The notes under the pieces were generated by a model. It had not been told where the DNA came from. It saw nothing but the letters and a program-made list of their open reading frames with translations, and did no database searches. A program made the translations under genes and the position numbers. DNA of 64,000 nt from Caenispirillum bisanense (GTDB taxonomy: Bacteria > Pseudomonadota > Alphaproteobacteria > Rhodospirillales > UBA2165): NCBI GenBank assembly GCA_945877815.1, contig CAMDWJ010000016.1:7516-71515 (forward strand), in the 5' to 3' direction. Of the stretch, positions 29,190 through 63,945 are shown piece by piece. Positions within the stretch are counted from its first letter, which is position 1. Every line of letters begins with the position of its first letter.

Positions 29190-30485
29190 TTAGTTCCATA
29201 ACGTGCGGCGCCAGTGATAGCCGATGAATGCTGTCACGCCGATGCCGAAGACGACATAGAGCGAGGCGGCAATCGGATAGCCGTAACGGTCGATCAGCGC
29301 ACCTGCGATAAGGAGTCCGACTGGCAGGCCATAGACCACGAGCATGCGAATCCCCATGACCCGGGCGCGGAAGCGTGCTTCCACGTCGCGAAGGAGTACC
29401 GCCGATAGCGTCACCATGGCGAGGTTGTGAATGATTCCCATGACGAACAGGACGATTAATCCGGTCAGCTTGGTTTCCATCTGTGCGAAAACCAGGATCA
29501 GCAGGTACCACAAGACAACGTTGATGAGCATGAAGCGGGCCGAACGCCGTTCGCCGCCCACGACCGTCATGATGATCGAACCGATCAGCGCGCCCGTGGC
29601 GAAGGTGGACACAAGATGCCCAAGGCCGGTCGCGTCGATGTGGTAGATATTCTTCGCCACATGCGGCAACAACTGATGCGACAGCGGGAAGGCGCTGAAA
29701 TTGAGCAAAAAGGCGAGCAACATCAAGCCGGTCACGGACGGCGCGGTCCAGGCATAAGACAGTCCGTCGCGCAGATCGCGCCATTGTCGCGCGATCAACC
29801 CGAGTGGGGCCGCGCCTATCGCCACCTTTTCCGGCGTGTCGGAGGCAGGGACATGGGCGACGCCGAGCGTCAGTAAAAAGCTCAGGGCATAGCAGACGAC
29901 GATGCAGACATAGGCAGGCCCCATGCCGAGGGTCGCGAACAGGCTGGCGCCGATGAGCGAGCCGGCGATACGCGCGCTGTCCATGGTCATGCGCGACAGG
30001 CCCAACGCGCTCATCAGTCGCGCCGGGGTCATGGTATCGCCGATCAAAGAATTGCGCATGACGAGGTCTGACGGCCGCACTAGACCGATCAGCAAGGCGA
30101 TCGGCAGGACATGGATAGGCTTGAGGACGCCGACCAAGGCTAAGGTCATCACGATGCTGGCAAGAAGTGTCAGAAAACCACGTGTCATGCACAGCGTCGT
30201 GCGCCGTCCGATGCGATCTCCCAGTACGCCGGAGAAAGGTGCCAGTAAGGTGCCGACGAAGAGAAGTGCTCCGTAAAGGGTGAGATAGAAAACCGAATCC
30301 GTCTCAACTAGAATGAACCAGCCGAGGATCAGGTTCTCCATTTCGAAGGCCCACGACATCAAAAGATCAGCGGGCCATTGGAACCGAAAGCTGCGTACCG
30401 CAAAGGGTGCCAGGGGAGCAGTCCACCAGTGGTGCGGTGCCGGTTTGCTCTCGATCGATGTATCTAGGTCCGAGCTGTCTTTCAC
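29190..30485 (-). CDS. MFS transporter
   Basis: About 12 hydrophobic segments; GVLGDRIGRR motif A. Confidence 0.88.
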   Translation of the reverse strand: MKDSSDLDTSIESKPAPHHWWTAPLAPFAVRSFRFQWPADLLMSWAFEMENLILGWFILVETDSVFYLTLYGALLFVGTLLAPFSGVLGDRIGRRTTLCMTRGFLTLLASIVMTLALVGVLKPIHVLPIALLIGLVRPSDLVMRNSLIGDTMTPARLMSALGLSRMTMDSARIAGSLIGASLFATLGMGPAYVCIVVCYALSFLLTLGVAHVPASDTPEKVAIGAAPLGLIARQWRDLRDGLSYAWTAPSVTGLMLLAFLLNFSAFPLSHQLLPHVAKNIYHIDATGLGHLVSTFATGALIGSIIMTVVGGERRSARFMLINVVLWYLLILVFAQMETKLTGLIVLFVMGIIHNLAMVTLSAVLLRDVEARFRARVMGIRMLVVYGLPVGLLIAGALIDRYGYPIAASLYVVFGIGVTAFIGYHWRRTLWN

Positions 30486-30540
30486 GGTTCGCCAAGCCTA
30501 TCCGCCGCTTTCGGGCATGGCCCCAGACAAACTCTGTAAT

Positions 30541-32292
30541 TCATGCCTGGCGTAGGCCTGTTCTGCGGACCAGCCACCAATAAAGCGCGACCAGGGGCAC
30601 CATCATGCTCATCAAGATTAGCGTCAACGCCGCGGCCGAGCCAAATCCACCCGAGAACCAGGCATTCCAGACCACGATAGGCAGGGTCAGGTTGTCGCGC
30701 GTCGACAGCACGACCGCCAGGGTCAGTTCGCGATATGTCAGAAGCGCCATCCACAGCCAAGCATAGATCAAGGTCGGGCCCAGCAGCGGGAGGATCACCT
30801 TCCAGATGATCACTCCAGTACCGACTCCGCTCATCGTTGCGGCTTCCTCCAGCTCTTTGTGGATCTGCATGAAGGTCGCGTTGGTCATGCGCGTCGCATA
30901 GCTGAGCCGCGCGACGACGAAAACGAGCAGCAGGATCCAAATGGTGCCGTGGATGGGCACGAATCGCTGCAGTACGAACAGCATGAACAGCATGGCGGCG
31001 AGCCCGAACACGATATTGGGGATCGCGTGCGGAAGAAATGCGACGAAATCGAATCCGACCCGGCCAGGGATCTTAGAACGCAACACAACCCAGGAGAAAC
31101 AGACGGCAATTGCGAGTGTCAGGGTCGGCGTCAGCACCATCAAGATCCCGGTATTGATGATGCCGTCGATGGTCATGTCCCATTGGATGTTCTGGAATTG
31201 TCGCAGCGATATGGTTTTGAACGCTGCCGCCGACGGATAGCGGAAGTAGGGCAGCAGCGACGCCCAGATTATCACCAGGAGTGGGAGTAGCTTGCTGAGA
31301 GTGAAATAGGCGCCGAGGAATCCCCAGGCGAGCCACACTTTACGGCCCAATGCGACGGTGCGGGGGCGATAGCCCTTTCCGGTGACGACCTGATAGCGGT
31401 GCGCATGGGCCTGAAGACGGCTGTACCACCAGATCAGCATGCCGGAGATGAAAATCACGACCATCGACAGCGCCGAGACCGCACCGTAACGCGGCAAGCC
31501 TTCTGCTGCGGACAATTGCAACAGTAGGTAGGTCGAAAAGGTATAGATCTTGTTCGACCAGCCGATGATCGCGGGCACGTCGAAGGCAGCGAAGCCGATG
31601 GTGAAGATATAGATGCCGGCGGCCAGGATGCCCGGCCAGGCCAGCGGCAAGGTCACCTTGCGCATTACGTTGAAGAAGCCGGCGCCCGACATCTGCGCCG
31701 ATTCCTCGAGTGCCGGATCGAGGGCACGCAGCACTGCGGCGGTCATGATGAAGGCAAGCGGCGCGAGGCTGAGACCCATGACCCAGCCCATTCCCATGAT
31801 GGAGGCGATATTGAACGGGGCCTCCGAGAGGGCGAATAGGTCCATCGCCCAGCGATTCACGATGCCGATTCGGGGATGGAGCATGAACAGCCAGCCCATA
31901 GCCGCGGCGAAACCGGGCATCAGCAATCCAATGGTCATGATGGTGAGCACGGCCGGTTTCCCGGGAAGGTCGGTGCGCTCGACGAGCCACGCCGTCGGCA
32001 CGCCGAAAAAGAGCCCGACCGCCAGCGCGATGAGCGAAAATTGGAGCGTATTCGTCAAAACCTTCAGGATGAACGGATCGCCGAATACCTCGGCGAAATG
32101 CAGGAAGGAATAGGCCGAATCCGGCTCGATGGGATGTGCCTCGCGCAGGCTTAGCCATAGCATGAAGAGCGGCATCATGATGATGACGACGCTGACGCAC
32201 GCGACGATTGCGAACATCACGCACGCCCATCGATCCATCTTTGGAAGGGACAACGAAAAGGTGCTGCGTTGCATTATGGCTACTGCGGTCAC
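30541..32292 (-). CDS. ABC permease, FbpB/ThiP-type with two fused domains
   Basis: Two EAA loops (LEESAQMSGA, LEEAATMSGV). Confidence 0.9.
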   Translation of the reverse strand: MTAVAIMQRSTFSLSLPKMDRWACVMFAIVACVSVVIIMMPLFMLWLSLREAHPIEPDSAYSFLHFAEVFGDPFILKVLTNTLQFSLIALAVGLFFGVPTAWLVERTDLPGKPAVLTIMTIGLLMPGFAAAMGWLFMLHPRIGIVNRWAMDLFALSEAPFNIASIMGMGWVMGLSLAPLAFIMTAAVLRALDPALEESAQMSGAGFFNVMRKVTLPLAWPGILAAGIYIFTIGFAAFDVPAIIGWSNKIYTFSTYLLLQLSAAEGLPRYGAVSALSMVVIFISGMLIWWYSRLQAHAHRYQVVTGKGYRPRTVALGRKVWLAWGFLGAYFTLSKLLPLLVIIWASLLPYFRYPSAAAFKTISLRQFQNIQWDMTIDGIINTGILMVLTPTLTLAIAVCFSWVVLRSKIPGRVGFDFVAFLPHAIPNIVFGLAAMLFMLFVLQRFVPIHGTIWILLLVFVVARLSYATRMTNATFMQIHKELEEAATMSGVGTGVIIWKVILPLLGPTLIYAWLWMALLTYRELTLAVVLSTRDNLTLPIVVWNAWFSGGFGSAAALTLILMSMMVPLVALYWWLVRRTGLRQA

Positions 32293-32350: not shown

Positions 32351-33439
32351 TTATTTACCGCTCGCCTGGAAGATTTTGACGACCTCGCGCTGAGCGGCAT
32401 TGCCTGGCTCGTTGGTTTCCTGCCAGTCGATGTCTGCATCGGCGAAGGTGATGCCGAACTTCTTTTCCACGGCCTGAATACCGGCGCGCTGGCGCGATTC
32501 GGGATAGAGATGCAGATCGTTCTGATGGAGTTCCCACATATCAAGTTGGCCCGGCACCGTATGCAGATAGGTGATGAAAAGCTTGGCCGCATTCGGATTG
32601 GGCGCGTTCTTCGGCACGGCGTGGTAGAAATAGCTGATCATCGGGTAGTCGGGCGTAACGACGCGGCGCACCGGCGCACCCTGAAGACTGGCTTTCACCA
32701 TGCTGCCACCACCGCAGTCGGTGACAAAGGCGAGGAATTCGCCGGACGAGATGCGTTCGGCTTCCGGGCAGAGGATGAAGCCGCCGACCTGTTGCCCGAA
32801 CTGGCGGGCGAATTCGAGCGTCTTTTCGGGCCCCCAGGCCTCCTTAGCCGCGAGCTGCTCGAACCCAGCGCCGAAGGCCGTGGTTGCGATCTTGCCCTTG
32901 AATTCGGGTTTAAGAAAATCGGATACGCGTTCCGGATTCGATTTCACGAGGTCCGTGTTGTAGGAAAAGCCAAGCGTCGCCGAGTATGCCTTCACGTAGG
33001 TTTCGCGCTCTATCAGCCGATCCGTCAGCCGCTCGGGATCGTAAGACTTCCACGGTGCCGTCTGGAACAGATCGAATTTCAGGAACGCACCCATGTTGCG
33101 CGAGAACCCGGTATAGAGATCGGTCGGCGCAGGGAGGTTGTTCTTCAGCGACACGGCGATCTCGTTGCCGATCTCGGGCATGGAGCCGCCGGGCGCCCAA
33201 ACCACTTTGACCTTCGTGCCAAAGGCCTTGTTCATGTTATCGGTGTAGATTTTGACGCCGCGTCCGCCATCAAAAAAGTTGCTGCTGTATTTGACGATGA
33301 CCTGGCCTTCCTTGTCGGCGGCGGCGGCCAGTGCCTTCAACTCGGGCGTCATCTTCAAGGTCTGTGCATCGGCGGCGTGAGCGACGAAAAGGGCAGTCGC
33401 AACGGCCCATGCGGCCATCAAGCTCGTAGTATTACGCAT
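32351..33439 (-). CDS. ABC substrate-binding protein (AfuA/FbpA-like fold)
   Basis: Signal peptide AHA-AD; AAADKEGQV; KNAPNPNAAKLFI. Confidence 0.85.
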   Translation of the reverse strand: MRNTTSLMAAWAVATALFVAHAADAQTLKMTPELKALAAAADKEGQVIVKYSSNFFDGGRGVKIYTDNMNKAFGTKVKVVWAPGGSMPEIGNEIAVSLKNNLPAPTDLYTGFSRNMGAFLKFDLFQTAPWKSYDPERLTDRLIERETYVKAYSATLGFSYNTDLVKSNPERVSDFLKPEFKGKIATTAFGAGFEQLAAKEAWGPEKTLEFARQFGQQVGGFILCPEAERISSGEFLAFVTDCGGGSMVKASLQGAPVRRVVTPDYPMISYFYHAVPKNAPNPNAAKLFITYLHTVPGQLDMWELHQNDLHLYPESRQRAGIQAVEKKFGITFADADIDWQETNEPGNAAQREVVKIFQASGK

Positions 33440-33520: not shown

Positions 33521-34678
33521 TTACTCCGCCGCTTGGCCTAGGCCGCCGGCATAATCGCCTGAATCCCGGCGAGCGTCCATTGCTGCAGCCTTTTGGCGGA
33601 AGTCGATGTTCTGCTCGGCGGGATCGCGGATGACGCCGAATGGATCCTGGCCTTCCTTCACGGCGGCTAATGCGTCGCGCATCATCTTGCGCATCAGGAT
33701 AACGCCGCCATCGGAGACGCCCAGATGCTCGTTCGGTCGATCGGCGATGACGCCCTGTTGCTCGATCGCCATGCGATCGTGATCGCTGACGTCGATACCC
33801 CACCAATCCTCCGCAAGCGGCTTGTATTCGCCGAGCTTCTCGTCGCGTTCGATAACTGTGCGGGTGCGCTTGTCACTGGGATAGAAGCGCACGAAGAATA
33901 GCTTGGTTTTCGTATCGTCAATCGGCACGCGATAGAGGACGGATTGCACCTGCGCGCCGTTCGGTTCGACTGGCGAAACGCTGAAGCGATTTACGGTCGG
34001 GAAGGCGTAGCAGGAGATATGCTCGTCATCGCCCGGGAGTCCGTCGATCATCATGACGTTATCGACGCCGTAGGATTGCGGTTCCCAATGGTAAGATACC
34101 TTCTTGCCGCCGTAGGCTGGATAGGCATAGCCGTGCAGCCACGCGAGGTGGCTAATGTCCAGTATGTTTTCGACATGGTTGAAGTAGTTGGCGTTGACAT
34201 GGCGGATCTGAACGCCCTTCACGCCGTCTTCCATTCGCAGCACATCAAAGAGCGGCAGCAGCGGTGCAGGCAACGGGCCCACATAGCCGAAGACAAGACC
34301 GCTATATTCCTGCACCGGATAGGTCTTGAGCTTGATCTTTTGATTGAAACCACTGCCTTCCGGCTCGGCAGGCTGTGCGGTGCATTGGCCGGTCTGATCG
34401 TAGAGCCAGCCGTGATAGGGGCAGCGGATGCTGTCGCCTTCGATACGGCCGTAATCGAGCGCTAGGCTGCGGTGGGCACAGCGTAGCTGCATGAGGGTGG
34501 CCTGACCGCTGGCACCGCGATACAGCATCAGTTCCTCGCCTAGGACCTTGATGCGTTTCGGCTTGCTAGTGATCTGCTCCGAAACCCCGACCGGATGCCA
34601 ATAACGGCGCAGGAGTTCGCCCATCGGAGTGCTCGGCCCGACGCAGGTGAAAAGCTTGTTTTCTTCGTGACTGAGCAT
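33521..34678 (-). CDS. Rieske non-heme iron oxygenase alpha subunit (phthalate 4,5-dioxygenase/LigX-like group)
   Basis: CAHR...CPYHGW Rieske ligands; ENILDISHLAWLH; distal D in DHDRMAIEQQG. Confidence 0.9.
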   Translation of the reverse strand: MLSHEENKLFTCVGPSTPMGELLRRYWHPVGVSEQITSKPKRIKVLGEELMLYRGASGQATLMQLRCAHRSLALDYGRIEGDSIRCPYHGWLYDQTGQCTAQPAEPEGSGFNQKIKLKTYPVQEYSGLVFGYVGPLPAPLLPLFDVLRMEDGVKGVQIRHVNANYFNHVENILDISHLAWLHGYAYPAYGGKKVSYHWEPQSYGVDNVMMIDGLPGDDEHISCYAFPTVNRFSVSPVEPNGAQVQSVLYRVPIDDTKTKLFFVRFYPSDKRTRTVIERDEKLGEYKPLAEDWWGIDVSDHDRMAIEQQGVIADRPNEHLGVSDGGVILMRKMMRDALAAVKEGQDPFGVIRDPAEQNIDFRQKAAAMDARRDSGDYAGGLGQAAE

Positions 34679-34724: not shown

Positions 34725-35888
34725 TTATTCCGCAGCGGTCGCGTTCCAATTGACGAACGCGCGGTCGTAGTTCAGGTGATCCTGGCGCTGTTCCATCATG
34801 GACGACTTCTGCGGGAAGATTATTTTCTGCTTGGCGGCATCGCGTATAACGCAGAGTGGATCCTTGCCCTCTTCGATCAAGGCGAGCGATTCGCGCAGCA
34901 TCTTGCGCTGCATAATGATGCCGCCGTCGGAAACTCCGAGGTGTTCGTTTGGGCGATCAGCAACTGTGCCTTGCTGTTCGATAGCCATGCGATCCTGATC
35001 GCCGACATCGATGCCCCACCAATCGTCGGCCAGCGCGCGGTAGACGCCGAGTTTTTCTTCCTTGCGCTGGTAGTTGATCGATTTCTTTTCGCTCGCATAA
35101 AAGCGGATGTAAAACTGCATGGTCGAGGTGTCATCCATCGGCACGCGGAAGATCATCGATCTGACCAGTTCACCGCCTTTTTCCGCCGGCGGGGCGGAGA
35201 AGCGGTTCACGTTGGGAAACGCGTAGCAGGAGACATGCGTGTCATCGATGCCTTCGATGTCCATCACGTTATCCATGCCGTAGTCTTTGCGGTCCCAGTG
35301 ATAGGTCACCTTTTTCGCGCCATATGCCGGAAAGGTATAGCCATGCAGCCACGCCAGGTGGCTGATATCCACGATGTTTTCAATGCAGTTGAGCCAGTTG
35401 CAGTTGACGTTGCGCCGGGCGATGCCCTTGACGCCGTCTTCGTCCATCATGACGTCGTAGATCGGCAGCAAAGGCGCCGGCAACGGCCCCATATATGCGA
35501 AGACGAGGCCGCTCGCCTCCTGCGTCGGATAGGTCGTGAGCTTCACCTTTTCCTTGAAGCCGCTGTCTTCAGGTTCGGCGGGCTGTGCCGTGCATTGGCC
35601 AGTCGCGTCATATAACCAACCGTGATAGGGGCAGCGGATACTGTCGCCTTCGACTCGGCCGTAATCCATGGCGAGGCTGCGGTGCGCGCAGCGCAGTTGA
35701 GTCAGTACCGGCTTGCCACTGGCACCGCGATAGATCAGCAGCTCCTCGCCGAGGATTTTCAGACGAGTTGGCTTGCTGGTGACAAATTCCGTGCATTCGA
35801 CGGGATGCCAATAACGCCGGAGCATTTCGCCCATGGGGGTTCTGCGGCCGACACTGGTAAAGAGGGCATTGTCTTCTTGGCTGAGCAT
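34725..35888 (-). CDS. Rieske non-heme iron oxygenase alpha subunit, tandem paralog
   Basis: CAHR...CPYHGW; ENIVDISHLAWLH; DQDRMAIEQQG. Confidence 0.9.
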   Translation of the reverse strand: MLSQEDNALFTSVGRRTPMGEMLRRYWHPVECTEFVTSKPTRLKILGEELLIYRGASGKPVLTQLRCAHRSLAMDYGRVEGDSIRCPYHGWLYDATGQCTAQPAEPEDSGFKEKVKLTTYPTQEASGLVFAYMGPLPAPLLPIYDVMMDEDGVKGIARRNVNCNWLNCIENIVDISHLAWLHGYTFPAYGAKKVTYHWDRKDYGMDNVMDIEGIDDTHVSCYAFPNVNRFSAPPAEKGGELVRSMIFRVPMDDTSTMQFYIRFYASEKKSINYQRKEEKLGVYRALADDWWGIDVGDQDRMAIEQQGTVADRPNEHLGVSDGGIIMQRKMLRESLALIEEGKDPLCVIRDAAKQKIIFPQKSSMMEQRQDHLNYDRAFVNWNATAAE

Positions 35889-41278: not shown

Positions 41279-41686
41279 TTAGATGGCGTCGCCGAAATGC
41301 TCGCGCGCGTTCACCGCTTCCTTGCCGTGGATTTGCACCAGGTCGGTCGGCTGCTTAGCCTGATAGAGCACCAGCTGTTCCTGGGTCTCGTTCTCGAGTT
41401 GGTAATACTCACCCACCGCCATGACGGCGCATTCGCCTTCCTTCATCTTGTGGATGGTGACCGGCTGATCGACGCCGGGCCGCGTGCGTAGGGTCAATTC
41501 GCCCTTGAGGACGAGGAAGGATTGGCTGGTGCCATTGTGATGATGGAATTCGTTCTTATAGCCGGGCTTGTAGTTATTGAGCGCAATCAGCAGGTCGCTT
41601 TCGCGCGCGACAGGCACATAGGCGCCGGATTTGCCAGCCTTTTGATGATTATCGATGGCGTTCCAGACGTTGCTAACCTTAGCCAC
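41279..41686 (-). CDS. cupin-domain protein
   Basis: EFHHHNGTSQSFLVLKGEL...GEYYQLEN; GTG start at 41686 inferred from a GGGAG RBS. Confidence 0.7.
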   Translation of the reverse strand: MAKVSNVWNAIDNHQKAGKSGAYVPVARESDLLIALNNYKPGYKNEFHHHNGTSQSFLVLKGELTLRTRPGVDQPVTIHKMKEGECAVMAVGEYYQLENETQEQLVLYQAKQPTDLVQIHGKEAVNAREHFGDAI

Positions 41687-41772
41687 AGTGCCCGCTCCCA
41701 TTGAATTTATTAATTTGGTCAATGGTATCCGGGCCGGGTGGGCTGGTCTAGAGGCAAACTCGTTGCCTAGCT

Positions 41773-57272: not shown

Positions 57273-58364
57273 TTATTTGCCCATTACTTCCTTGAATATC
57301 TTCACGACCGCATCGATCTCCTTCGATCCGTCGTCAGTCGATACCCAGACATACTGATTAGGATTGGAGAAGTCGGGCTGGTTTTCCTTGTGATCCGGAT
57401 GCGGCTCCACGTCCTTGCGCATGCTGACCGCGCCGGTCTGGTTGTACTTCGCCCATTCGGCGACGAGGCGTGTCTGGCCTTCCTTGCTGAGGATCCAGTT
57501 GACGAAGACCTTGGTGGCTTCGGGATTTGGCGCGTTCTTGAAAACGGCGAAGCCACGCGAGACGGCGGTCGACATGTGCGGGATAGGGAAAATATTCTTG
57601 CAGCCGCCATCCTTCAGGCATTGCGAATAGGCAGCGCCCTGCATGCCGAACGCCACGGCCGCGCCGCCGCGGATGATGGTAGTGTCGATCTGCTGCGGAT
57701 TGTCGAGTACGCGAGGGTCCTGCTCCTTCAGCAGCTTGGTCACAAACGCGCCGCCCTTCGCTTTGTAGAGTGGCGATAACGCGAACGAGCCGGCGTTCGG
57801 TGCCGACGCATCGCGCAGGATGACTTTGCCTTTCAACCTCGGATCGAGCAGAGAATCTAATGTATCGAGTTTGAGCTCGGGCACGACATCGCGGTTGCGA
57901 TAGGCCGAGTAGGAAACCTCGTGGCTATAGGTGAAGACGTGTTTGATCGGATCGCCATGCAGATAGTCCTTGTGGCGCCACTGATTTACGTCTTTCACTT
58001 CCGGTAGAACCAGGAACGGATCGAATGGTTGCAGCATTCCGGCAGGCGAAGCGACATTTACCATGTTCGCCGTAATCGCCCACCAGATGTCCCAGAGGTA
58101 CTGGCCGTTCGCTTGTTCGGTTTTGACACGTGGAAGGATGACGGTCGGCCGCGCCGTGGTCGATTCAACCTTGATGCCGGTCTTCTTGGTGAATTCGGCC
58201 AACAATTCATCGACCGCTTTATTCTCCTGATAGACCATCACGAGCTTTTGCGTTTTGGCTTTCTCGATGACGGCCTTCCATTCGGCGTCCTGCGCCTGGA
58301 CTGTTCCGACCGATGCGACGAGCAGTGCGAATACACCGAGAGTCCAATTGAAAATCCGCGACAT
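57273..58364 (-). CDS. ABC substrate-binding protein (array copy 2, 363 aa)
   Basis: Paralog; start moved to MSRIFNW (58364) with GGAGG RBS. Confidence 0.88.
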   Translation of the reverse strand: MSRIFNWTLGVFALLVASVGTVQAQDAEWKAVIEKAKTQKLVMVYQENKAVDELLAEFTKKTGIKVESTTARPTVILPRVKTEQANGQYLWDIWWAITANMVNVASPAGMLQPFDPFLVLPEVKDVNQWRHKDYLHGDPIKHVFTYSHEVSYSAYRNRDVVPELKLDTLDSLLDPRLKGKVILRDASAPNAGSFALSPLYKAKGGAFVTKLLKEQDPRVLDNPQQIDTTIIRGGAAVAFGMQGAAYSQCLKDGGCKNIFPIPHMSTAVSRGFAVFKNAPNPEATKVFVNWILSKEGQTRLVAEWAKYNQTGAVSMRKDVEPHPDHKENQPDFSNPNQYVWVSTDDGSKEIDAVVKIFKEVMGK

Positions 58365-58499: not shown

Positions 58500-58535
58500 A
58501 AAAAAAACGCCAAGGACCGGCAAGGGGCCTTGGCG
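58500..58535 (-). terminator. intrinsic terminator after the first binding protein
   Basis: On the minus strand, an 8-bp stem CGCCAAGG/CCTTGGCG followed by an 8-T run. Confidence 0.8.
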
Positions 58536-58554: not shown

Positions 58555-59652
58555 TCAGTGGCCGGTTACGGCCTTGAATATTTTGATCGTCTCGTTGATT
58601 TCCTGGCTGCCTTTTTCGCTCGATACGAAGACATATTTATCCGGCTGAGTGAAATCCGGCAAATACTGCGAGTGACCAGGGGCCGGTTCTACATCCTTGC
58701 GCATACTGACTGCACCTGAGTTGTTGACTTTGGCCCATTCGCGCACGGAAACCTCCTGGCCTTCCTTGGACAGGAACCAATTGAGCCAGACCTTCGTTGC
58801 CTCCGGATTCGGCGGATTTTTCGGCACCGAAAGCCCCCAGGAAATGGCAATGGAGAATTGCTTCAACTCATCGACGCTCTTGCAGCCGCCGTCGCGGCGG
58901 CATTGTTCCCAGATCGATGATTCAAGCCCGATCGAGATCGCCTGGCCGCCACGCGTGATGGCGGTTTCGAGTTGCTGGGGGTTCGCATAGACCTTTACGT
59001 CCTGTTCCTTCAGGAGGCGGGTCAGGAACTCAGGGCCCTTCGCATGATAAAGCGTCGCGAGGGCGAATGTCCCGAAATTCGGAACCGACGCGTCGCGCAT
59101 CGAGATTTTGCCCTTGAGCCGAGGATCGAGGAGGGAGTCCAGGGTGGCGATCTTCAATTCCGGCAGCACCGCCTCGTTGCGGAGGATGGGGAAGCTCAGC
59201 TCATTGAGGTGCGTAAAGACGCGCTTGCCGCTGTCGCCGTAAATGAAATCGGGGTGGCGCCAATTGGCCGCTTCCTTGATCTCGGGAAGGATGAAGTAGT
59301 TTTCCAATGGTTCCAGCATTCCAGCCGGCGCCGCCGAGTTTACCATGTTGGACGTGCCGCCCATCCAAACGTCCCAAACGTATTGACCGTTTTTTTGTTC
59401 GGTCTGCATACGGGTAAGCGTGGCTGAGGGCCGCGAGATGGTGGCTGCGACCTTAATGCCAAATTTTTTCGTGAATTCGGCCAGGATGGCGTCGATGGCA
59501 AGACTTGGTTGCTGGGCGAAGACGAGGCTCTGGCTCTTGGCCTTCTCAACGGTCGCCTTCCATTCCGCTTCCCACGATTGCGCGGACGATACGCTGGGGA
59601 TCGCGGCCGACATCATAAGCGCGCTGCAGATGGCTATGGTTCTGGACAGCAT
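58555..59652 (-). CDS. ABC substrate-binding protein (array copy 1, 365 aa)
   Basis: Most divergent paralog; follows the permease; GGAGGAA RBS. Confidence 0.88.
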   Translation of the reverse strand: MLSRTIAICSALMMSAAIPSVSSAQSWEAEWKATVEKAKSQSLVFAQQPSLAIDAILAEFTKKFGIKVAATISRPSATLTRMQTEQKNGQYVWDVWMGGTSNMVNSAAPAGMLEPLENYFILPEIKEAANWRHPDFIYGDSGKRVFTHLNELSFPILRNEAVLPELKIATLDSLLDPRLKGKISMRDASVPNFGTFALATLYHAKGPEFLTRLLKEQDVKVYANPQQLETAITRGGQAISIGLESSIWEQCRRDGGCKSVDELKQFSIAISWGLSVPKNPPNPEATKVWLNWFLSKEGQEVSVREWAKVNNSGAVSMRKDVEPAPGHSQYLPDFTQPDKYVFVSSEKGSQEINETIKIFKAVTGH

Positions 59653-59703: not shown

Positions 59704-61434
59704 TTATTCCGCGCGGCCGAGGCCGGCCTTCAATCCGATATGACGCGCGAGCAATGCCGCGACGATCGTTATCACCATGATCATGATGCCGATCACCGAA
59801 GCGGGCTCGAACAAGCCGCTATCGAGATAGATGAGCTGAACGATGGACAGGGGCTGTGTCGCCCCGGTGCCGAGCAGCGCGACAAGGCCGACAACGGAGA
59901 CGCCGGTCGCGAAGATCTCGAGGCCGATCACGGCGACGGACGGTGCGATCAGTGGCAGCACGACGCGTCGGAACGTATAGAAGCGCGATGCGCCGGCCGC
60001 GGCCGAGGCTTCCTCCAGTTCCGCGCCGAGGCGCATCAGGCTCGTTTTGATGATCTGCGTGCCGAGCGCCAGCGAACCCACGATTACCGCGAGAACGAGG
60101 ACGGCGATCGTTCCGTAGATCGGTCGGAAGATCGGCGTTCCCGCGAACATCTGCAAGAAGCCGAGGCCGAGGACGAGGCCCGGGATGATCGCCGGAAGCC
60201 ACGTGAGGAAATCAAGGAGGCGCCGGCCCCAGAATTTGGTCTTAACGACGATGTACGCGAGCAGGGAATAGACCGCCATGCCGATCAGCGCTGCCGAGAT
60301 CGCAAGCCGCATCGAGTTCCAAAAGGCACGCGGAATGTCGCCGCGGCTGAAGGCATCGACCCAATTGCGCGTCGTCCACGGCTGAGGCAGGTCGAACATA
60401 CCGAACTTCTTCATGAAGCTGCTCACGAGCAGCAGAATGAAGGGAAGGATCGTCATGAAGAACAGCAGCGCGGCGATCACGCCGAACAAGATCCAGCGCC
60501 AGCTTCCCAGATCCATGCTGCGGTTGGAGAACTTGCCCGAGATCGAGGAATGAGCCGATGCGCCGTACCATTGCTGGAGTGCTACCAGTGGCGCGATGAC
60601 GGCCAGGAAGGTCACCGAGAGCGCCGCCGCGATGCCGTGGCCGGGCGGCGTGGCGTTGATCGCCTTGTAGATTGCCGTGGAGTAGACCTCGATGCGAACG
60701 GGGCCACCCAGGATCAATTCGATTTCGAAGGCCTGCATGGAGCGGATCATGCCCAGCATGATGACCACGATGATGGTCGGTGCCATAATCGGCACGACGA
60801 TGTGAAGGAGCGTCTTGAAGATCGGCGCGCCGCAGGTGCGCGCGGCCTCTTCGAGGGCCGCATCCATACCGCGGAAGGCGGGCACCAACAGAAAAACCTT
60901 GATCGCAAGGGTCGAGGTCATGAGGTGGACCCAGATGATGCCCCACCACGAGTAGATCTTGAAGAGGTCGTAATCGATGCCGAACAGCCAGCGCGCGCCG
61001 ATATTGAGCAGGCCGATACTTTCGTCGGCGAGCAGCACCCAGGCGAGCGTGATGGGCAGGGCCGGCATGAACAGCGCAATCCAGAAGCCGACCTCGATCC
61101 AGCCCGCGAAGGGCAGATTGGTGCGCGCAATCAGCCATGCGAGGATCACGCCAAAGATGAGCGAGATGAACTGGCGCCCGACGGCGAGTGTCAGGGTGTT
61201 CTGAATCGCATCGACGAGGCGCGGGCGCGAGAAGATTTCGCGCCAATTGTCGAGCCCCGTCGAGGGATTGAGGGTGAAGGCATTCACCTGGAAGCTCGTT
61301 ATGACCAGCATCAACGCCGGGTAGATCACCAAGAAAGCGACCATCGCCAGGACAATCGTGTAGAAAAGAGATTGTGCGCTGACGCCAGGTTTGTTTATTG
61401 ACCAGGTGCCGCGTTGAAGAACCGCTTCGCTCAT
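59704..61434 (-). CDS. ABC permease, FbpB-type
   Basis: LEEAARTCGA and LEEASAAAGA EAA loops. Confidence 0.9.
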   Translation of the reverse strand: MSEAVLQRGTWSINKPGVSAQSLFYTIVLAMVAFLVIYPALMLVITSFQVNAFTLNPSTGLDNWREIFSRPRLVDAIQNTLTLAVGRQFISLIFGVILAWLIARTNLPFAGWIEVGFWIALFMPALPITLAWVLLADESIGLLNIGARWLFGIDYDLFKIYSWWGIIWVHLMTSTLAIKVFLLVPAFRGMDAALEEAARTCGAPIFKTLLHIVVPIMAPTIIVVIMLGMIRSMQAFEIELILGGPVRIEVYSTAIYKAINATPPGHGIAAALSVTFLAVIAPLVALQQWYGASAHSSISGKFSNRSMDLGSWRWILFGVIAALLFFMTILPFILLLVSSFMKKFGMFDLPQPWTTRNWVDAFSRGDIPRAFWNSMRLAISAALIGMAVYSLLAYIVVKTKFWGRRLLDFLTWLPAIIPGLVLGLGFLQMFAGTPIFRPIYGTIAVLVLAVIVGSLALGTQIIKTSLMRLGAELEEASAAAGASRFYTFRRVVLPLIAPSVAVIGLEIFATGVSVVGLVALLGTGATQPLSIVQLIYLDSGLFEPASVIGIMIMVITIVAALLARHIGLKAGLGRAE

Positions 61435-61440
61435 GTTGTC

Positions 61441-62586
61441 TTACTCGCTGTGCGAATCGGTGGCGGACCGATCCCACAATTGCAGCTTGTTTGGCGGCAA
61501 CGTGAGTCGGACGGGTTGGCCTTCGCGCCAGTCGTACGCCGGCGAAAGGCGTAGCAGAGCCATATGACCACCTGGCAGCTCGATGTCGGCCTCGTAGGTT
61601 TCGCCCATGAAAAGCAATGTGCGAATGGTTGCTTTCAGACTGTTGGTGCCGGCGGCGTTGGTCGTTTCGGCAGGTTCGACGATGATCGATTCAGGGCGCA
61701 CCGAGACAAGGCACTTCTCGTCGATGGCACGCGACGAGGTCCGAATCGGTCCGGCGACGCTGAATACCTGACCGTCTGCGACGCTCACGTCCACGTTCGC
61801 CCCAGTGGTGCCGACGATACGTGCCGGCATCAGGATCGAACGGCCCAGGAAGTCGCGCACGGCCGGCGTACCGGGTTCGGCATATAATTGCTCGGGCGGA
61901 CCGATCTGTTCGATGCGGCCATCCTTCATCACTGCTATGCGGTCGCTGAGCGCGAGCGCCTCGCTCTGGTCGTGCGTGACGAACAGGATGGAGATGCCGA
62001 TACGGCGTTGCAGACGCTTCAGCTCGGCACGCATGTTCTCACGAAGGCGGGCGTCGAGATTGCTGAAGGGCTCGTCCATCAGCAGAACGCTCGGATTGGC
62101 GACCAGGCCGCGCGCCACGGCGACGCGCTGCATCTGTCCGCCCGAAAGTTGCGTCCCGCGACGGTTCTCATAGCCTTTGAGGCCGACCTGATCGAGTGTT
62201 TCCAACACCCGGCGATTGGCTTCGGCCTTGGGCACTTTGCGGTAGCGCAGCGGGTAGGCGACGTTCTCCAACACGCTCATGTGCGGCCAGATGGCATAGG
62301 ATTGGAACACCATGCCCATGCCGCGCTTTTCAGGCTCGACGAAGAGGCGATCGGCCGGACTATCGACGAGCTTGCCCTCGTAGCTCACCCGCCCGCTGGA
62401 CAGCCGTTCCAGCCCAATGGACATGCGTAAGGTCGTCGTCTTGCCGCAACCGGAAGGGCCGAGCAGTGTCAGAATTTCACCGCGCTTCAGCTCGAACGAA
62501 ACGTCATTAACGGCCCGCACCGGGCCGAACATGCGTGAGACGTTCTCAAAAGTCAGGATCGCGTCCTGGGTTTCGTTTTGCGACAT
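61441..62586 (-). CDS. ABC ATP-binding subunit (FbpC type)
   Basis: GPSGCGKT, LSGGQMQR, LLMDEPFSNLD. Confidence 0.93.
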   Translation of the reverse strand: MSQNETQDAILTFENVSRMFGPVRAVNDVSFELKRGEILTLLGPSGCGKTTTLRMSIGLERLSSGRVSYEGKLVDSPADRLFVEPEKRGMGMVFQSYAIWPHMSVLENVAYPLRYRKVPKAEANRRVLETLDQVGLKGYENRRGTQLSGGQMQRVAVARGLVANPSVLLMDEPFSNLDARLRENMRAELKRLQRRIGISILFVTHDQSEALALSDRIAVMKDGRIEQIGPPEQLYAEPGTPAVRDFLGRSILMPARIVGTTGANVDVSVADGQVFSVAGPIRTSSRAIDEKCLVSVRPESIIVEPAETTNAAGTNSLKATIRTLLFMGETYEADIELPGGHMALLRLSPAYDWREGQPVRLTLPPNKLQLWDRSATDSHSE

Positions 62587-62596: not shown

Positions 62597-62614
62597 TCCT
62601 GATTTCAATCAGGA
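62597..62614. promoter_or_regulatory. 18-bp inverted repeat, candidate operator
   Basis: TCCTGATT-TC-AATCAGGA, perfect 8-bp arms, directly upstream of the RBS of the ATPase gene. Confidence 0.55.
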
Positions 62615-62655
62615 TCAATACAACACCAAACTCTAATATAAAAGAGGGGCCGGCG

Positions 62656-63945
62656 TTACCACTTACAGACTAGATCTTCGGCGTATTGTTCGCGCCAGTC
62701 CTTGCCTGCGGGAACCAGTCCGTCGTGCGGCCGGCATTGGCCATGCGTTTTCGGATCGGTGCCGCGCGGCCGATTGCCTGCCTCGACATCGCGCGTCGCT
62801 TCCAGCAGCAAGTTGCGCATAGAGATGATCGCCTTGTCCGACGAGCCGAGATTCTCTTTGGTCCGATCGCAGATCATCTTTCCATCGGCGCCGCCCATGG
62901 CTTCTTGCAGCGCGAAGTCCTGGGTGTTGACGCCGACAATGCCGGTGAAGTTCGAGGTCTTCTGCATCTGTCGGTCGATCAGGTAATCATTCGACGGATT
63001 CTTTTTCAGAACGAACGTGATCGGGTCCAGATCGTCTTTGCCGCGACCGGCCGACTTTTCCATTTCCTCAACATATTCAGGGCTCAGCGCCGCATTCTGA
63101 TTGGCGCCGACCATCCAGTTGTAGACAAAGGTATGTTCATCGTCGATTGGCACCCAGATATGGCCGTCATGCTTCGGGACACGATTGGAGCGTGAACCCG
63201 GATTGCCTTGGACGTTGGCGCGCATCTGCTGCCCCGGCATGACATATTGATAGACGCGCACATAGGTGCCGTCCTCGTTCGCGTTGCGGTGCGAGACGTA
63301 ATAGAAGCCGTAATCGGTTTTCTCGACGTCGAGGCGAGGGGCGCGGTCGCGTTGGCGGAATTCGAGCTTGTCGCCCAATTTGTTGTTATGCAGGTACGAC
63401 GAATGCGCGGTGTCGAGCCCGCCTTCGAGCGCCTGCAGCCAATTGCAATGTTCGAAGGTCTTGGAAACGTGGCGATGGGTTTCGGGTGCACGCATCCATT
63501 CGTAATTCGGCGGCTCGGGCATCTGATCCTTGGGCCCGAGATAGGCGAAAATGAGGCCGGCTTTCTCAAAGGTCGGGTAAGCGCCGATCTTGATATGATC
63601 CTTCATCTTGCTCGAGGCGGGTTCGGTCGGCACATCGACGCAATTGCCGTCGGCATCGAATTTCCAGCCGTGATAGACGCAGCGCAGGCCGCATTCTTCG
63701 TTGCGCCCGTAGAACATCGGCGCGCGGCGGTGCGGGCAATAGGCCTCGACTAAGCCGACCTTGCCGTTGGTATCGCGGAAGGCTACGAGGTCCTCGCCTA
63801 ATAGCCGGACGCGAACGGGAGCGCCGTCTGGCTCCGGCGCTTCGCTCGACAGCAAGATCGGCTGCCAATATCTACGCATCAACTCGCCCGTGGGCGTGTT
63901 GCGGGAGACTCGGGTCAGGCGGACATTGTCTTCTTGCGACAACAT
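62656..63945 (-). CDS. Rieske oxygenase alpha subunit, phthalate 4,5-dioxygenase-like
   Basis: CPHRRAP...CVYHGW; EGGLDTAHSSYLH; QDFALQE. Confidence 0.9.
   Translation of the reverse strand: MLSQEDNVRLTRVSRNTPTGELMRRYWQPILLSSEAPEPDGAPVRVRLLGEDLVAFRDTNGKVGLVEAYCPHRRAPMFYGRNEECGLRCVYHGWKFDADGNCVDVPTEPASSKMKDHIKIGAYPTFEKAGLIFAYLGPKDQMPEPPNYEWMRAPETHRHVSKTFEHCNWLQALEGGLDTAHSSYLHNNKLGDKLEFRQRDRAPRLDVEKTDYGFYYVSHRNANEDGTYVRVYQYVMPGQQMRANVQGNPGSRSNRVPKHDGHIWVPIDDEHTFVYNWMVGANQNAALSPEYVEEMEKSAGRGKDDLDPITFVLKKNPSNDYLIDRQMQKTSNFTGIVGVNTQDFALQEAMGGADGKMICDRTKENLGSSDKAIISMRNLLLEATRDVEAGNRPRGTDPKTHGQCRPHDGLVPAGKDWREQYAEDLVCKW

What the first reader, a model, noticed from the sequence alone, without database searches (positions are those of the whole stretch)
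29190..63945. Recurring cassette: a Rieske oxygenase joined to an FbpABC-type importer, three times
Seen, in transcription order: Rieske-SBP-permease-ATPase (41250 to 36020); Rieske-Rieske-SBP-permease-MFS (35888 to 29190, no ATPase of its own); Rieske-ATPase-permease-SBP x5-SDR (63945 to 53106). None of the seven SBPs shows the adjacent Tyr-Tyr Fe3+ ligands of FbpA/FutA. Established: aromatic acids are usually imported by Liv-type ABC, TRAP, TTT or MFS carriers, while this fused-permease class is annotated for Fe3+, thiamine or phosphorylated solutes. Inference: an under-described branch of iron-type ABC systems repurposed for aromatic or heteroaromatic substrates, with the 36020 ATPase shared by two permeases.
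Basis: partly seen in the sequence, partly recalled or inferred. Interest (0 to 1): 0.65.

Follow-up and report, generated by a model that had tools for sequence, protein, structure and literature searches.

The report
Aromatic-acid importers mislabelled as iron transporters
Three gene sets annotated as iron importers sit next to iron-sulfur (Rieske) oxygenases and most likely import acidic aromatic compounds for those enzymes to break down. They belong to a genome-wide pattern in which about half of this bacterium's 64 such oxygenases have their own binding-protein gene next door.

Summary
All 18 listed genes are present, intact, on the minus strand and tightly spaced. None of the seven binding proteins (SBPs) has a Tyr-Tyr pair.

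"Three times" is really two lineages. Cassettes A and B are paralogs in one gene string. Cassette C is a separate subfamily, 25-28% identical.

The pairing is not chance. Genome-wide, 36 of 64 Rieske genes abut an SBP gene, against about 5 expected. Five of six distant A-type loci elsewhere keep the Rieske-SBP-permease order. Near C-type SBPs in other phyla, Rieske genes are about 5.6-fold enriched, and the commonest neighbours are UbiD decarboxylases, bicupins and LigB.

Rsk_C keeps the three carboxylate-binding arginines of phthalate dioxygenase. The SBP fold is FbpA/AfuA/MctA-like, but both the iron ligands and the AfuA phosphate clamp are replaced. An invariant Arg-Pro/Thr/Asn core sits beside hypervariable positions that align with AfuA ligand contacts.

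Best reading (about 0.7): an uncharacterised branch of "Fe3+-type" ABC importers takes up aromatic carboxylates. Oxygenase-SBP pairs act as specificity modules that share permeases, ATPases and reductases. ATPase sharing is untested, but it has an experimental precedent in the closest relatives (P5PAB/AfuC). No ligand has been shown.

The parts
62656..63945 (-). Rsk_C: alpha-only phthalate-family Rieske oxygenase, first gene of cassette C
   Evidence: Pfam Rieske + LigXa_C, 3e-44. PDB isophthalate dioxygenase 9ina 6e-91 and phthalate dioxygenase 7fjl 4e-87. CxH-x17-CxxH and D-x2-H-x4-H are intact. It keeps PDO-KF1 Arg207, Arg231 and Arg244 and has His at the position of iPDO His257.
61441..62586 (-). 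ATPase of cassette C (ABC_tran + TOBE_2)
   Evidence: Pfam; 43% identical to ATP_A.
59704..61434 (-). Fused two-domain permease of cassette C
   Evidence: Two BPD_transp_1 stretches. Best NCBIfam match is the fused PhnU2 type, 166 bits, far below its 593-bit cut-off. About 12 hydrophobic segments. Only one other C-type permease exists in the genome.
58555..59652 (-). SBP_C1, class-D (FbpA/AfuA-fold) periplasmic binding protein
   Evidence: Pfam SBP_bac_11/8/6/1. AF2 model pLDDT 86.7. Foldseek top hits are MctA, VcA0625, FbpA, P5PA and AfuA. No YY.
57273..58364 (-). SBP_C2. The ORF extends to 58523; the probable start is at 58364.
   Evidence: Pfam; signal peptide begins at MSRIFNW; 54-72% identical to the other C SBPs.
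56158..57255 (-). SBP_C3
   Evidence: Pfam; identities.
55032..56129 (-). SBP_C4
   Evidence: Pfam; identities.
53907..55004 (-). SBP_C5
   Evidence: Pfam; identities.
53106..53903 (-). SDR oxidoreductase, last gene of cassette C. Candidate cis-dihydrodiol dehydrogenase (inferred).
   Evidence: Pfam adh_short. It lies 3 nt after SBP_C5. No NCBIfam model reaches its cut-off.
42877..43992 (-). MetE-like (Meth_synt_2) protein heading the A/B gene string
   Evidence: Pfam. NCBIfam subfamily PRK06520, 461 bits, above its cut-off. The same family sits beside A-type cassettes in L097 and L094.
42599..42877 (-).
   Evidence: ORF. 77% identical to the 90-aa gene of L097 that carries a weak LigA Pfam hit.
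41773..42606 (-). LigB-type class III extradiol ring-cleavage dioxygenase. The ORF extends to 42660.
   Evidence: Pfam LigB 1e-34. Best NCBIfam matches are class III extradiol dioxygenase models, all below their cut-offs.
41279..41794 (-). Cupin_2 protein
   Evidence: Pfam; conserved in L097.
40105..41250 (-). Rsk_A, Rieske oxygenase of cassette A
   Evidence: Pfam Rieske. PDB 7fhr 1e-35. Motifs intact. Keeps the Arg231 and Arg244 equivalents.
38983..40074 (-). SBP_A, class-D binding protein (A/B subfamily)
   Evidence: Pfam SBP_bac_6/11. Distant PDB matches to YfuA/SfuA/P5PA. No YY. Found in 2 of 401 sampled alphaproteobacterial genomes.
37114..38934 (-). Fused permease of cassette A
   Evidence: Two BPD_transp_1 stretches; 66% identical to perm_B.
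36020..37117 (-). ATPase of cassette A (ABC_tran + TOBE_2). The ORF extends to 37243. It is the only ATPase in the A/B string.
   Evidence: Pfam. The start at 37117 overlaps the permease stop by 4 nt.
34725..35888 (-). Rsk_B1, Rieske oxygenase
   Evidence: Pfam; PDB 7fhr 3e-46; 66% identical to Rsk_B2.
33521..34678 (-). Rsk_B2, Rieske oxygenase
   Evidence: Pfam; motifs intact.
32351..33439 (-). SBP_B, class-D binding protein, paralog of SBP_A (53%)
   Evidence: Pfam; identities.
30541..32292 (-). Fused permease of cassette B, with no ATPase of its own
   Evidence: Pfam. The same ATPase-less layout occurs in L091, L092, L094 and L095.
29190..30485 (-). MFS_1/MFS_3 (EntS-like) carrier ending cassette B
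   Evidence: Pfam; NCBIfam. An MFS_3 gene holds the same position in L092.
28246..28755 (+). 3-hydroxyanthranilate-dioxygenase-like cupin, convergent with cassette B
   Evidence: Pfam 3-HAO 6e-19. Best NCBIfam matches are below their cut-offs. Syntenic in L092.
28778..29182 (+). RidA/YjgF-family deaminase
   Evidence: ORF. NCBIfam TIGR00004, 98.9 bits, just under its 106-bit cut-off. Syntenic in L092.

Best explanation
The three cassettes encode binding-protein-dependent ABC importers. Their architecture is FbpABC/AfuABC-like: a class-D SBP, one fused 12-TM permease and a TOBE ATPase. They have lost the iron site and most likely take up anionic aromatic compounds, above all aromatic mono- and polycarboxylic acids. 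The co-transcribed alpha-only Rieske oxygenases then hydroxylate or demethylate those compounds in the cytoplasm.

In cassette C, five divergent SBPs would dock on one permease and widen its substrate range. Rsk_C would dihydroxylate a carboxylated ring, and the terminal SDR would re-aromatise the cis-diol. In the A/B string, the products would feed LigAB or 3-HAO-like ring cleavage.

The cassettes are one form of a genome-wide design. Oxygenase+SBP gene pairs act as specificity modules. Permeases (2 of C type for 13 C-type SBPs), ATPases and reductases (about 2 PDR-like candidates for 64 oxygenases) are shared in trans. ATP_A would then power permeases A and B.

Shown: the gene content, the conserved synteny, the enrichment, the loss of metal and phosphate ligands, and the conserved arginines in the oxygenase. 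Inferred: the ligand class, co-transcription, SBP sharing, ATPase sharing and the role of the SDR.
For: 1. Anatomy and tight spacing.
2. Non-random pairing: 36 of 64 Rieske genes abut an SBP gene, against 5.1 expected and a maximum of 16 in 1000 shuffles.
3. A-type synteny: a Rieske gene lies directly upstream of SBP-permease in G128 and in L091, L094, L095 and L096, whose SBPs are 49-56% identical. It also does so in the orthologous loci L092 and L097.
4. C-type loci: 18 of 79 loci from several phyla carry a Rieske gene, and in 12 it is directly adjacent. The density is 21 per Mb, against 3.7 per Mb genome-wide in 20 host genomes. Seventeen of those 20 hosts carry LigXa_C oxygenases (2-64 each); none of 14 control genomes does.
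5. Other recurrent neighbours of C-type SBPs are UbiD decarboxylases (33 loci), bicupins (27), LigB, meta-cleavage-type hydrolases and Mo-hydroxylases. UbiD enzymes act on aromatic or unsaturated carboxylic acids (established knowledge).
6. Rsk_C and the four other Rieske paralogs that abut a close C-type SBP (plus one unpaired copy on C73) keep PDO-KF1 Arg207, Arg231, Arg244 and Ser182, and have His at the iPDO His257 position. Forty-six of 59 genome paralogs keep Arg244 (residue roles from PMC8649396).
7. SBP model pLDDT is 86.7. Foldseek places it with MctA (Mg-citrate), G6P-binding VcA0625/AfuA, P5PA and FbpA.
8. The FbpA Tyr-Tyr and the AfuA/P5PA phosphate clamp (S/T-G and S-G-T) are replaced by variable residues, by R74-P75 and by P191-N192 (PMC8427247).
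9. Among 12 C-type paralogs, the anchor positions R74, P75, T100, F146, P191, N192 and S271 are invariant. The most variable segments (46-49, 245-248, 262-268) include or adjoin positions that align with AfuA ligand contacts.
10. P5PAB lacks an ATPase and uses AfuC (PMC8427247). Five of the eight A-type loci lack an adjacent ATPase.
Against:
- 61 of 79 C-type loci show no Rieske gene in the fetched flanks, although many are short contigs. The oxygenase link is therefore lineage-specific and not a family rule.
- L001 (creatininase, MR_MLE, phosphonate-type SBP) and L093 lack a Rieske gene.
- Rsk_B1 and Rsk_B2 have Ile/His where PDO has Arg231/Arg244, so cassette B may take a less acidic substrate.
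- Phthalate-family Rieske enzymes also act on non-aromatic substrates.
- Consensus scans found no more promoter or terminator sites than shuffles, so the operon boundaries are not defined.
- Pocket mapping rests on sequence alignments at about 20% identity.
Confidence: 0.7

Rival explanations
1. The importers take up anionic organic compounds that are not aromatic carboxylates. Candidates are alicyclic carboxyl-rich molecules, sugar acids, sulfonates, phosphonates or phosphate esters, or N-methylated compounds. The Rieske enzymes would act as hydroxylases or demethylases on these.
For: - The nearest solved SBPs bind PLP, sugar phosphates and metal-citrate.
- NCBIfam's best, far sub-threshold matches are 2-aminoethylphosphonate components.
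- C-type loci also carry GD_AH-type dehydratases, MR_MLE, MmgE/PrpD and class II aldolases.
- Phthalate-family Rieske enzymes include steroid, betaine and saxitoxin oxygenases.
Against: - The AfuA/P5PA phosphate clamp is not conserved.
- The surrounding genes are ring-cleavage and aromatic-acid enzymes: LigAB, 3-HAO-like cupin, bicupin and UbiD.
- The Rsk_C pocket matches phthalate and isophthalate dioxygenases residue for residue at the carboxylate-binding positions.
Confidence: 0.18
2. These are genuine iron or metal-chelate importers. They would bring in ferric ion, or ferric/magnesium complexes of organic acids, to supply the many Fe-S and non-heme-iron oxygenases encoded beside them.
For: - Sources name the homologs 'iron(III) transport system substrate-binding protein'.
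- The fold matches FbpA/FutA, and the top Foldseek hit is the metal-citrate protein MctA.
- The genome has a heavy iron demand, with 64 Rieske enzymes.
Against: - No SBP has a Tyr-Tyr, and the cFbpA Tyr-Tyr aligns to variable Ser/Ala.
- There are 13 C-type paralogs with hypervariable residues at positions that align with AfuA ligand contacts. This fits many organic ligands, not one metal.
- Pairing is roughly one SBP per oxygenase paralog. It also involves SBP_bac_5 and TctC families, which are not iron carriers.
- UbiD enzymes (prFMN-dependent, by established knowledge) are the commonest neighbours elsewhere.
Confidence: 0.06
3. The co-location is incidental. The genome is so rich in Rieske, SBP and ABC genes that adjacency arises by chance or by hitch-hiking on a catabolic island, with no functional coupling.
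For: - The genome holds 64 Rieske and 140 SBP genes of three families among about 3460 ORFs.
- Identities of adjacent Rieske and SBP paralogs do not co-vary among the five close pairs (r = -0.02).
Against: - Shuffles give 5.1 adjacent pairs (maximum 16) against 36 observed.
- The same Rieske-SBP-permease order recurs in distant genomes at about 50% SBP identity.
- Gaps of 30-80 nt on the same strand point to co-transcription.
Confidence: 0.04

Closest known systems
AfuABC and P5PAB of Actinobacillus pleuropneumoniae (PDB 4r72, 6wce; PMC4546632, PMC8427247)
   Same: - These are the best sequence matches of the C-type profile (1.6e-16 and 1.6e-19).
- The class-D SBP fold is the same.
- They too were annotated as iron importers but carry organic anions, one of them a heteroaromatic (PLP).
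- P5PAB has no ATPase of its own and borrows AfuC. This is the same situation proposed for cassette B.
   Different: - Only about 20% identical.
- Their phosphate clamp (S/T37-G38, S-G-T148-150) is replaced here by R74-P75 and P191-N192.
- The ring contacts His203/205 and Glu229 fall in hypervariable positions here.
- They are single SBPs not linked to oxygenases.
FbpABC/HitABC/SfuABC/FutABC ferric-ion importers (TC 3.A.1.10)
   Same: Three-part architecture: a class-D SBP, one fused permease with two BPD_transp_1 domains, and an ATPase with a TOBE domain.
   Different: The Tyr-Tyr iron ligands are absent. SBPs occur in multi-copy arrays. The genes are embedded in aromatic catabolic operons.
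MctA metal-citrate binding protein of Thermus thermophilus (PDB 7f6e and mutants)
   Same: Top Foldseek match (1e-16, TM 0.66-0.70). It shows that this fold can bind a polycarboxylate.
   Different: 18% identity. It binds a metal-citrate complex, not an aromatic. No oxygenase context is known to me.
TTT systems for phthalate isomers in Comamonas (TphC/IphC binding proteins with the shared TpiBA membrane unit; iphACBDR operon). From my own knowledge; not tested here.
   Same: The logic is the same. A binding-protein gene sits inside the operon next to a phthalate-family or related Rieske oxygenase and a diol dehydrogenase. Many orphan binding proteins share one membrane translocator. This genome also has TctC-like partners next to 5 Rieske genes.
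   Different: An unrelated, secondary-active transporter superfamily, not an ABC system.
Phthalate and isophthalate dioxygenases PDO-KF1 and IPDO (PDB 7fjl, 9ina; PMC8649396, PMC12445078)
   Same: - Rsk_C matches at 4e-87 and 6e-91.
- The Rieske and 2-His-1-carboxylate motifs are intact, and the bridging Asp178 is present.
- Arg207, Arg231 and Arg244 are kept, with His at the position of iPDO His257.
   Different: The aromatic-stacking Phe278 and Phe280 are Val and Asn. The substrate is therefore probably a different carboxylated aromatic. No reductase gene is adjacent.
PatDABC (Rhodococcus jostii RHA1) and OphFGH (Burkholderia) phthalate ABC importers (listed in PMC10973024)
   Same: ABC uptake of phthalate linked to phthalate catabolic genes.
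   Different: Their SBP families could not be compared here, because no sequences were at hand and PMC2704722 is not held. I could not test whether they belong to the class-D branch.
SBP_bac_5-Rieske pairs and Rieske paralog expansions in SAR202 and other Chloroflexota (PMC6946804; scan notes e1-4944742, e1-2198395)
   Same: Large expansions of alpha-only LigXa_C-type oxygenases, each often beside an orphan SBP gene. In this genome 23 Rieske genes have an SBP_bac_5 neighbour.
   Different: A different SBP superfamily (PepT type) and a different phylum. The class-D cassettes described here carry their own fused permease.

Membership tests
Ferric-ion ABC importers (FbpABC/FutABC type) | Class-D type II periplasmic binding-protein fold | tested here: met
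   AF2 model pLDDT 86.7. Foldseek hits to FbpA, HitA and FutA have probability 1.00 and TM 0.6-0.75.
Ferric-ion ABC importers (FbpABC/FutABC type) | Single fused permease with two BPD_transp_1 halves, plus an ATPase with a C-terminal TOBE domain | tested here: met
   Pfam finds two BPD_transp_1 stretches in each permease and ABC_tran+TOBE_2 in both ATPases.
Ferric-ion ABC importers (FbpABC/FutABC type) | Fe3+ ligand set with adjacent Tyr-Tyr (plus His/Glu or further Tyr) | tested here: not met
   None of the seven SBPs contains YY. The cFbpA 'NTYYIG' aligns to 'lqsssl' of the C-type profile. That segment is the most variable one among 12 paralogs.
Ferric-ion ABC importers (FbpABC/FutABC type) | Iron-responsive regulation (Fur or an equivalent) and an iron-uptake phenotype | not testable with these tools
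AfuABC/P5PAB organophosphate importers | Phosphate clamp formed by S/T37-G38, T60 and S147/148-G-T149/150 at helix N-termini (PMC8427247) | tested here: not met
   In the HMMER alignment to 4r72, S37-G38 aligns to P75-S76 (preceded by the invariant R74) and S-G-T aligns to P191-N192-A. Only T60 is kept, as T100.
AfuABC/P5PAB organophosphate importers | Ring-contacting Tyr103 and His203/205 | tested here: not met
   Tyr103 aligns to the invariant Phe146. His205 aligns to hypervariable position 245.
AfuABC/P5PAB organophosphate importers | SBP-permease pair that can work with an ATPase encoded by a paralogous operon | not testable with these tools
   Cassette B and 5 of the 8 A-type loci lack an adjacent ATPase. 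Function needs experiment.
Phthalate-family (class IA, alpha-only) Rieske oxygenases | Rieske CxH...CxxH cluster motif and a D-x2-H-x4-H iron site with the bridging Asp | tested here: met
   Both motifs are present in all four window Rieske proteins. D178, H181 and H186 are invariant in 59 genome paralogs.
Phthalate-family (class IA, alpha-only) Rieske oxygenases | LigXa_C/VanA_C-type catalytic domain and no beta-subunit gene | tested here: met
   Pfam LigXa_C 3e-44 for Rsk_C, weaker for A and B. No small-subunit ORF lies between the cassette genes.
Phthalate 4,5-dioxygenase / isophthalate dioxygenase proper | Carboxylate-binding Arg207 and Arg244 (PDO), or Arg234 and His257 (iPDO) | tested here: met
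   Rsk_C has R197, R220, R230 and H262 at these positions. Rsk_A keeps two Arg. Rsk_B1 and Rsk_B2 have Ile/His.
Phthalate 4,5-dioxygenase / isophthalate dioxygenase proper | Ring-stacking Phe278/Phe280/Phe339, and equivalog-level sequence identity | tested here: not met
   Phe278 and Phe280 align to Val and Asn. No NCBIfam equivalog reaches its cut-off. I therefore file Rsk_C as a family relative, not as a PDO or IPDO.
Phthalate 4,5-dioxygenase / isophthalate dioxygenase proper | Cognate FMN/[2Fe-2S] reductase encoded with the oxygenase | tested here: not met
   No reductase in the window. No Fer2 hit on contig C16. PDR-sized Fer2 ORFs lie only at C52:18916 and C9:75317.

The most novel reading that the evidence does not exclude
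The cassettes reveal a 'plug-in specificity module' strategy. Each new oxygenase paralog is genetically coupled to its own periplasmic receptor. The receptors come from three unrelated superfamilies: class-D 'Fe3+-type', PepT-type SBP_bac_5 and TctC. A handful of permeases, ATPases and reductases serve all modules in trans.

The class-D branch comprises about 530 clusters at 50% identity and spans Alphaproteobacteria, Binatia, 'Deltaproteobacteria', Chloroflexota and Verrucomicrobiota. It would be a dedicated receptor family with a fixed carboxylate anchor (R74-P75/T100/N192) and a hypervariable selectivity rim. Its role would be to harvest the many aromatic polycarboxylates of humic dissolved organic matter.
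Probability: 0.4. Interest if true: 0.7.

Novelty: new variant of a known kind. Interest (0 to 1): 0.55.

Why it matters
- Hundreds of protein clusters now labelled 'iron(III) transport substrate-binding protein' would be relabelled as organic-acid receptors. That would change iron-uptake inferences from metagenomes.
- It would add a fifth carrier type for aromatic acids, beside Liv-type ABC, TRAP, TTT and MFS.
- It offers a practical route to de-orphaning large Rieske (and UbiD) paralog expansions in bacteria that degrade humic or dissolved organic matter. The soluble SBP next to each enzyme can be screened for ligands far more easily than the oxygenase itself.
- It gives a second, natural test case for ATPase sharing between paralogous ABC importers.

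Tried and rejected
- Promoter and terminator consensus scans of both regions gave no more sites than shuffles. The only suggestive feature is a weak hairpin plus T-run after SBP_C1 (58522-58508).
- NCBIfam gave no hit above cut-off for any SBP, permease or Rieske protein. The best were PhnS/PhnU2 and 4beta-methylsterol monooxygenase (SdmA) models, far below threshold. I rejected both a phosphonate-importer and a sterol-oxygenase assignment.
- Co-duplication of Rieske and SBP as a unit: identity matrices of the five close pairs do not correlate (r = -0.02). I do not claim strict co-duplication.
- Five literature searches found no description of this SBP branch or of class-D SBP-Rieske pairing. 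The OphFGH paper is not held.
- I first considered quaternary-amine or N-methyl substrates (GbcA/CntA/Stc2-like). I dropped this because the matches to those enzymes are marginal (1e-4 or worse) and the context is ring cleavage.
- I considered the Rieske genes as simple O-demethylases (VanA/LigXa). This is still possible for A and B. For C, the PDO/IPDO pocket and the terminal SDR favour dihydroxylation.

Full report
OBSERVATION

- Cassette A: Rieske 40105-41250, SBP 38983-40074, fused permease 37114-38934 and ATPase 36020-37243.
- Cassette B: two Rieske genes (34725-35888 and 33521-34678), SBP 32351-33439, fused permease 30541-32292 and an MFS carrier 29190-30485. It has no ATPase.
- Cassette C: Rieske 62656-63945, ATPase 61441-62586, fused permease 59704-61434, five SBPs between 59652 and 53907, and an SDR 53106-53903.

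Each permease has two BPD_transp_1 stretches and both ATPases end in TOBE_2. All seven SBPs have a Sec-type signal peptide, two conserved cysteines and no 'YY'. Gaps between genes run from -22 to 216 nt.

I make two refinements. First, A and B are paralogs (SBP 53%, permease 66% identical), while C is only 25-28% identical to them. The 'three' cassettes therefore represent two lineages. Second, A and B lie in one continuous co-directional string. It begins upstream with a MetE-like gene, an unlisted 92-aa LigA-like ORF (42599-42877), LigB and a cupin. A 3-HAO-like cupin and a RidA gene lie convergent to its end.

IS IT MORE THAN CHANCE?

The window lies on contig C16 of a 3.98-Mb, 84-contig genome. 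Its closest relative in the public genome set is a 'Rhodospirillaceae bacterium' MAG. HMMs built from the window proteins and their recurrent neighbours find 64 phthalate-family Rieske genes. They also find 86 SBP_bac_5, 32 class-D and 22 TctC-like binding-protein genes, among about 3460 non-overlapping ORFs.

Thirty-six of the 64 Rieske genes have a binding-protein gene as their immediate neighbour: 23 SBP_bac_5, 8 class-D and 5 TctC-like. A thousand label shuffles gave a mean of 5.1 and a maximum of 16. The finding is therefore real, and it is the class-D form of a much wider oxygenase-receptor pairing in this genome.

There are 13 C-type SBPs but only two C-type permeases. Rieske-SBP pairs without any permease sit on contigs C7 (three pairs) and C27.

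OTHER GENOMES

A-type SBPs are rare, occurring in 2 of 401 sampled alphaproteobacterial genomes. Eight loci were examined.
- In five, the SBPs are 49-56% identical to SBP_A and a Rieske gene lies directly upstream of SBP-permease. These are G128/L088, L091, L094, L095 and L096.
- L093 (56%) lacks a Rieske gene.
- L092 and L097 are orthologous loci from close relatives (Rsk_A 94% identical). L097 reproduces the A part of the string with both following Rieske genes. L092 reproduces the cassette B layout, with three Rieske genes instead of two and the RidA/3-HAO pair.
- Five of the eight loci have no ATPase next to the permease.

For the C type, 79 loci were fetched from Alphaproteobacteria, Binatia, 'Deltaproteobacteria', Chloroflexota and Verrucomicrobiota.
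- Forty-seven carry tandem arrays of 2-7 SBPs.
- Eighteen carry a Rieske gene, and in 12 it is directly adjacent.
- The Rieske density is 21 per Mb. In 20 of the host genomes, LigXa_C genes occur at 3.7 per Mb genome-wide.
- Seventeen of those 20 hosts carry 2-64 LigXa_C oxygenases. None of 14 reference genomes has any.
- The commonest other neighbours are UbiD-family decarboxylases (33 loci) and bicupins (27 loci). NMT1-type SBPs, Zn-ADH, Mo-hydroxylase subunits, LigB and meta-cleavage-type hydrolases follow.

A profile search of 1.84 billion representative proteins finds 532 clusters at E<=1e-30 and 2035 at E<=1e-10. Source names, where given, read 'iron(III) transport system substrate-binding protein'.

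WHAT THE PROTEINS SAY

The C-type profile is closest to P5PA (1.6e-19) and AfuA (1.6e-16), and only then to true ferric-binding proteins. An AlphaFold model (pLDDT 86.7) matches MctA (metal-citrate), the G6P-binding VcA0625, FbpA, P5PA and AfuA. That class already contains receptors for organic anions.

The Tyr-Tyr of Campylobacter FbpA aligns to 'QSSS'. The phosphate clamp of AfuA/P5PA (S/T37-G38 and S-G-T148-150; PMC8427247) aligns to R74-P75 and P191-N192. Tyr103 aligns to the invariant Phe146, and His205 aligns to a hypervariable residue.

Across 12 C-type paralogs of this genome, R74, P75, T100, F146, P191, N192 and S271 never vary. The most variable segments (46-49, 245-248, 262-268) include or adjoin positions that align with AfuA ligand contacts. 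That pattern fits a constant anchor for one functional group and a variable rim for the rest of the ligand. This is inference, and the alignments are at about 20% identity.

All four Rieske proteins have intact cluster and iron motifs. Rsk_C matches isophthalate dioxygenase (9ina, 6e-91) and phthalate dioxygenase PDO-KF1 (7fjl, 4e-87). In the pairwise alignments it keeps Arg207, Arg231, Arg244 and Ser182 of PDO-KF1. These residues salt-bridge or hydrogen-bond the phthalate carboxylates (PMC8649396). It has His where iPDO has His257. The stacking Phe278 and Phe280 are Val and Asn.

The four other Rieske paralogs that abut a close C-type SBP carry the same signature, as does one unpaired copy on C73. 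Forty-six of 59 genome paralogs keep Arg244. Rsk_A keeps two of the arginines. Rsk_B1 and Rsk_B2 have Ile and His instead, and their cassette sits beside 3-HAO-like and RidA genes. That hints at an amino-aromatic substrate, which is speculative.

No reductase gene lies in the window or on contig C16. Only two PDR-sized Fer2 ORFs were seen in the genome.

MECHANISM PROPOSED

Periplasmic class-D SBPs capture aromatic carboxylates and deliver them to a fused 12-TM permease driven by a TOBE ATPase. In the cytoplasm the co-encoded alpha-only Rieske oxygenase attacks the ring, with electrons from a reductase encoded elsewhere.

In cassette C, the SDR would re-aromatise a cis-diol. In the A/B string, LigAB or the 3-HAO-like cupin would cleave the product. 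Five SBPs (C1-C5), and probably the orphan C7 and C27 SBPs, would share permease C. ATP_A would serve permeases A and B.

ATPase sharing is shown experimentally for the nearest relatives, P5PAB with AfuC (PMC8427247). It matches the ATPase-less layout of most A-type loci. It is inference here.

COMPARISON AND NOVELTY

- The system has the architecture of an FbpABC/AfuABC importer, but it fails the defining ligand features of both subfamilies.
- Rsk_C is a relative of PDO and IPDO, not an equivalog.
- The logic resembles the Comamonas TTT systems (TphC/IphC with a shared TpiBA). This comparison rests on my own knowledge.
- It also resembles the SBP_bac_5-Rieske pairs noted elsewhere in this scan.
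- Five literature searches found no description of this SBP branch or of its link to Rieske or UbiD enzymes.

I rate it a new variant of a known kind: an uncharacterised substrate class and a modular genomic organisation within a known transporter class.

LIMITS

- Operon boundaries are not defined.
- Most C-type loci outside Alphaproteobacteria lack a Rieske neighbour.
- The residue mapping depends on remote alignments.
- The exact substrates remain unknown.

Noticed in passing
whole genome G000 (e.g. C34:13220-26302, C52:4973-15135, C1:105850-110262): A 4-Mb genome carries 64 alpha-only phthalate-family Rieske genes and 86 SBP_bac_5 genes. On C34, five Rieske genes are spaced about 1.65 kb apart, each apparently followed by an SBP_bac_5-sized (~510-aa) gene; a representative from C1 was confirmed as SBP_bac_5.
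   Followed up: partly
window 42599-42877 (-): An unlisted 92-aa LigA-like small-subunit ORF. Its start overlaps the MetE-like stop by 1 nt and it ends 2 nt before the likely LigB start. It is 77% identical to the LigA-annotated gene of L097.
   Followed up: yes
window 42877-43992 (-): A MetE-like (cobalamin-independent methionine-synthase family) gene heads the LigAB-Rieske-ABC string. The family recurs beside A-type cassettes in L097 and L094. Its role in an aromatic catabolic operon is unexplained.
   Followed up: no
window 28246-29182 (+): A 3-hydroxyanthranilate-dioxygenase-like cupin plus a RidA deaminase lie convergent to cassette B, and the pair is syntenic in L092. This suggests an amino-aromatic pathway downstream of Rsk_B1/B2.
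   Followed up: partly
window 46360-48714 (+): A 784-aa Mo-hydroxylase large subunit with no medium or small subunit ORF of normal size seen next to it. The same family recurs in 9 of the 79 C-type SBP loci of other phyla.
   Followed up: no
window 58508-58522 (-): A weak hairpin followed by a run of eight T in the 190-nt gap after SBP_C1. It could be a partial terminator that sets SBP_C1 apart from SBP_C2-C5 and the SDR.
   Followed up: no
L018-L086 (Binatia, Deltaproteobacteria, Chloroflexota loci): Tandem arrays of up to 7 class-D SBPs next to UbiD-family decarboxylases (57 genes in 33 loci) and 370-aa bicupins (27 loci). This is a recurrent, apparently undescribed gene set.
   Followed up: partly
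G000 C7:59043-60554 and L005:11144-12655: A 503-aa GD_AH (altronate/galactarate dehydratase-like) gene is interleaved between Rieske-SBP pairs in L005. A 503-aa ORF (not itself annotated) holds the same position on contig C7.
   Followed up: no
G000 C52:18916 and C9:75317: Only two phthalate-dioxygenase-reductase-sized Fer2 ORFs were seen for 64 oxygenases. This implies extensive sharing of electron donors.
   Followed up: partly
C16:71662-72948 (just beyond the window end): A further Rieske gene (37% identical to Rsk_C) is transcribed divergently from Rsk_C, 202 nt away. The shared intergenic region is the likely control region of cassette C.
   Followed up: no
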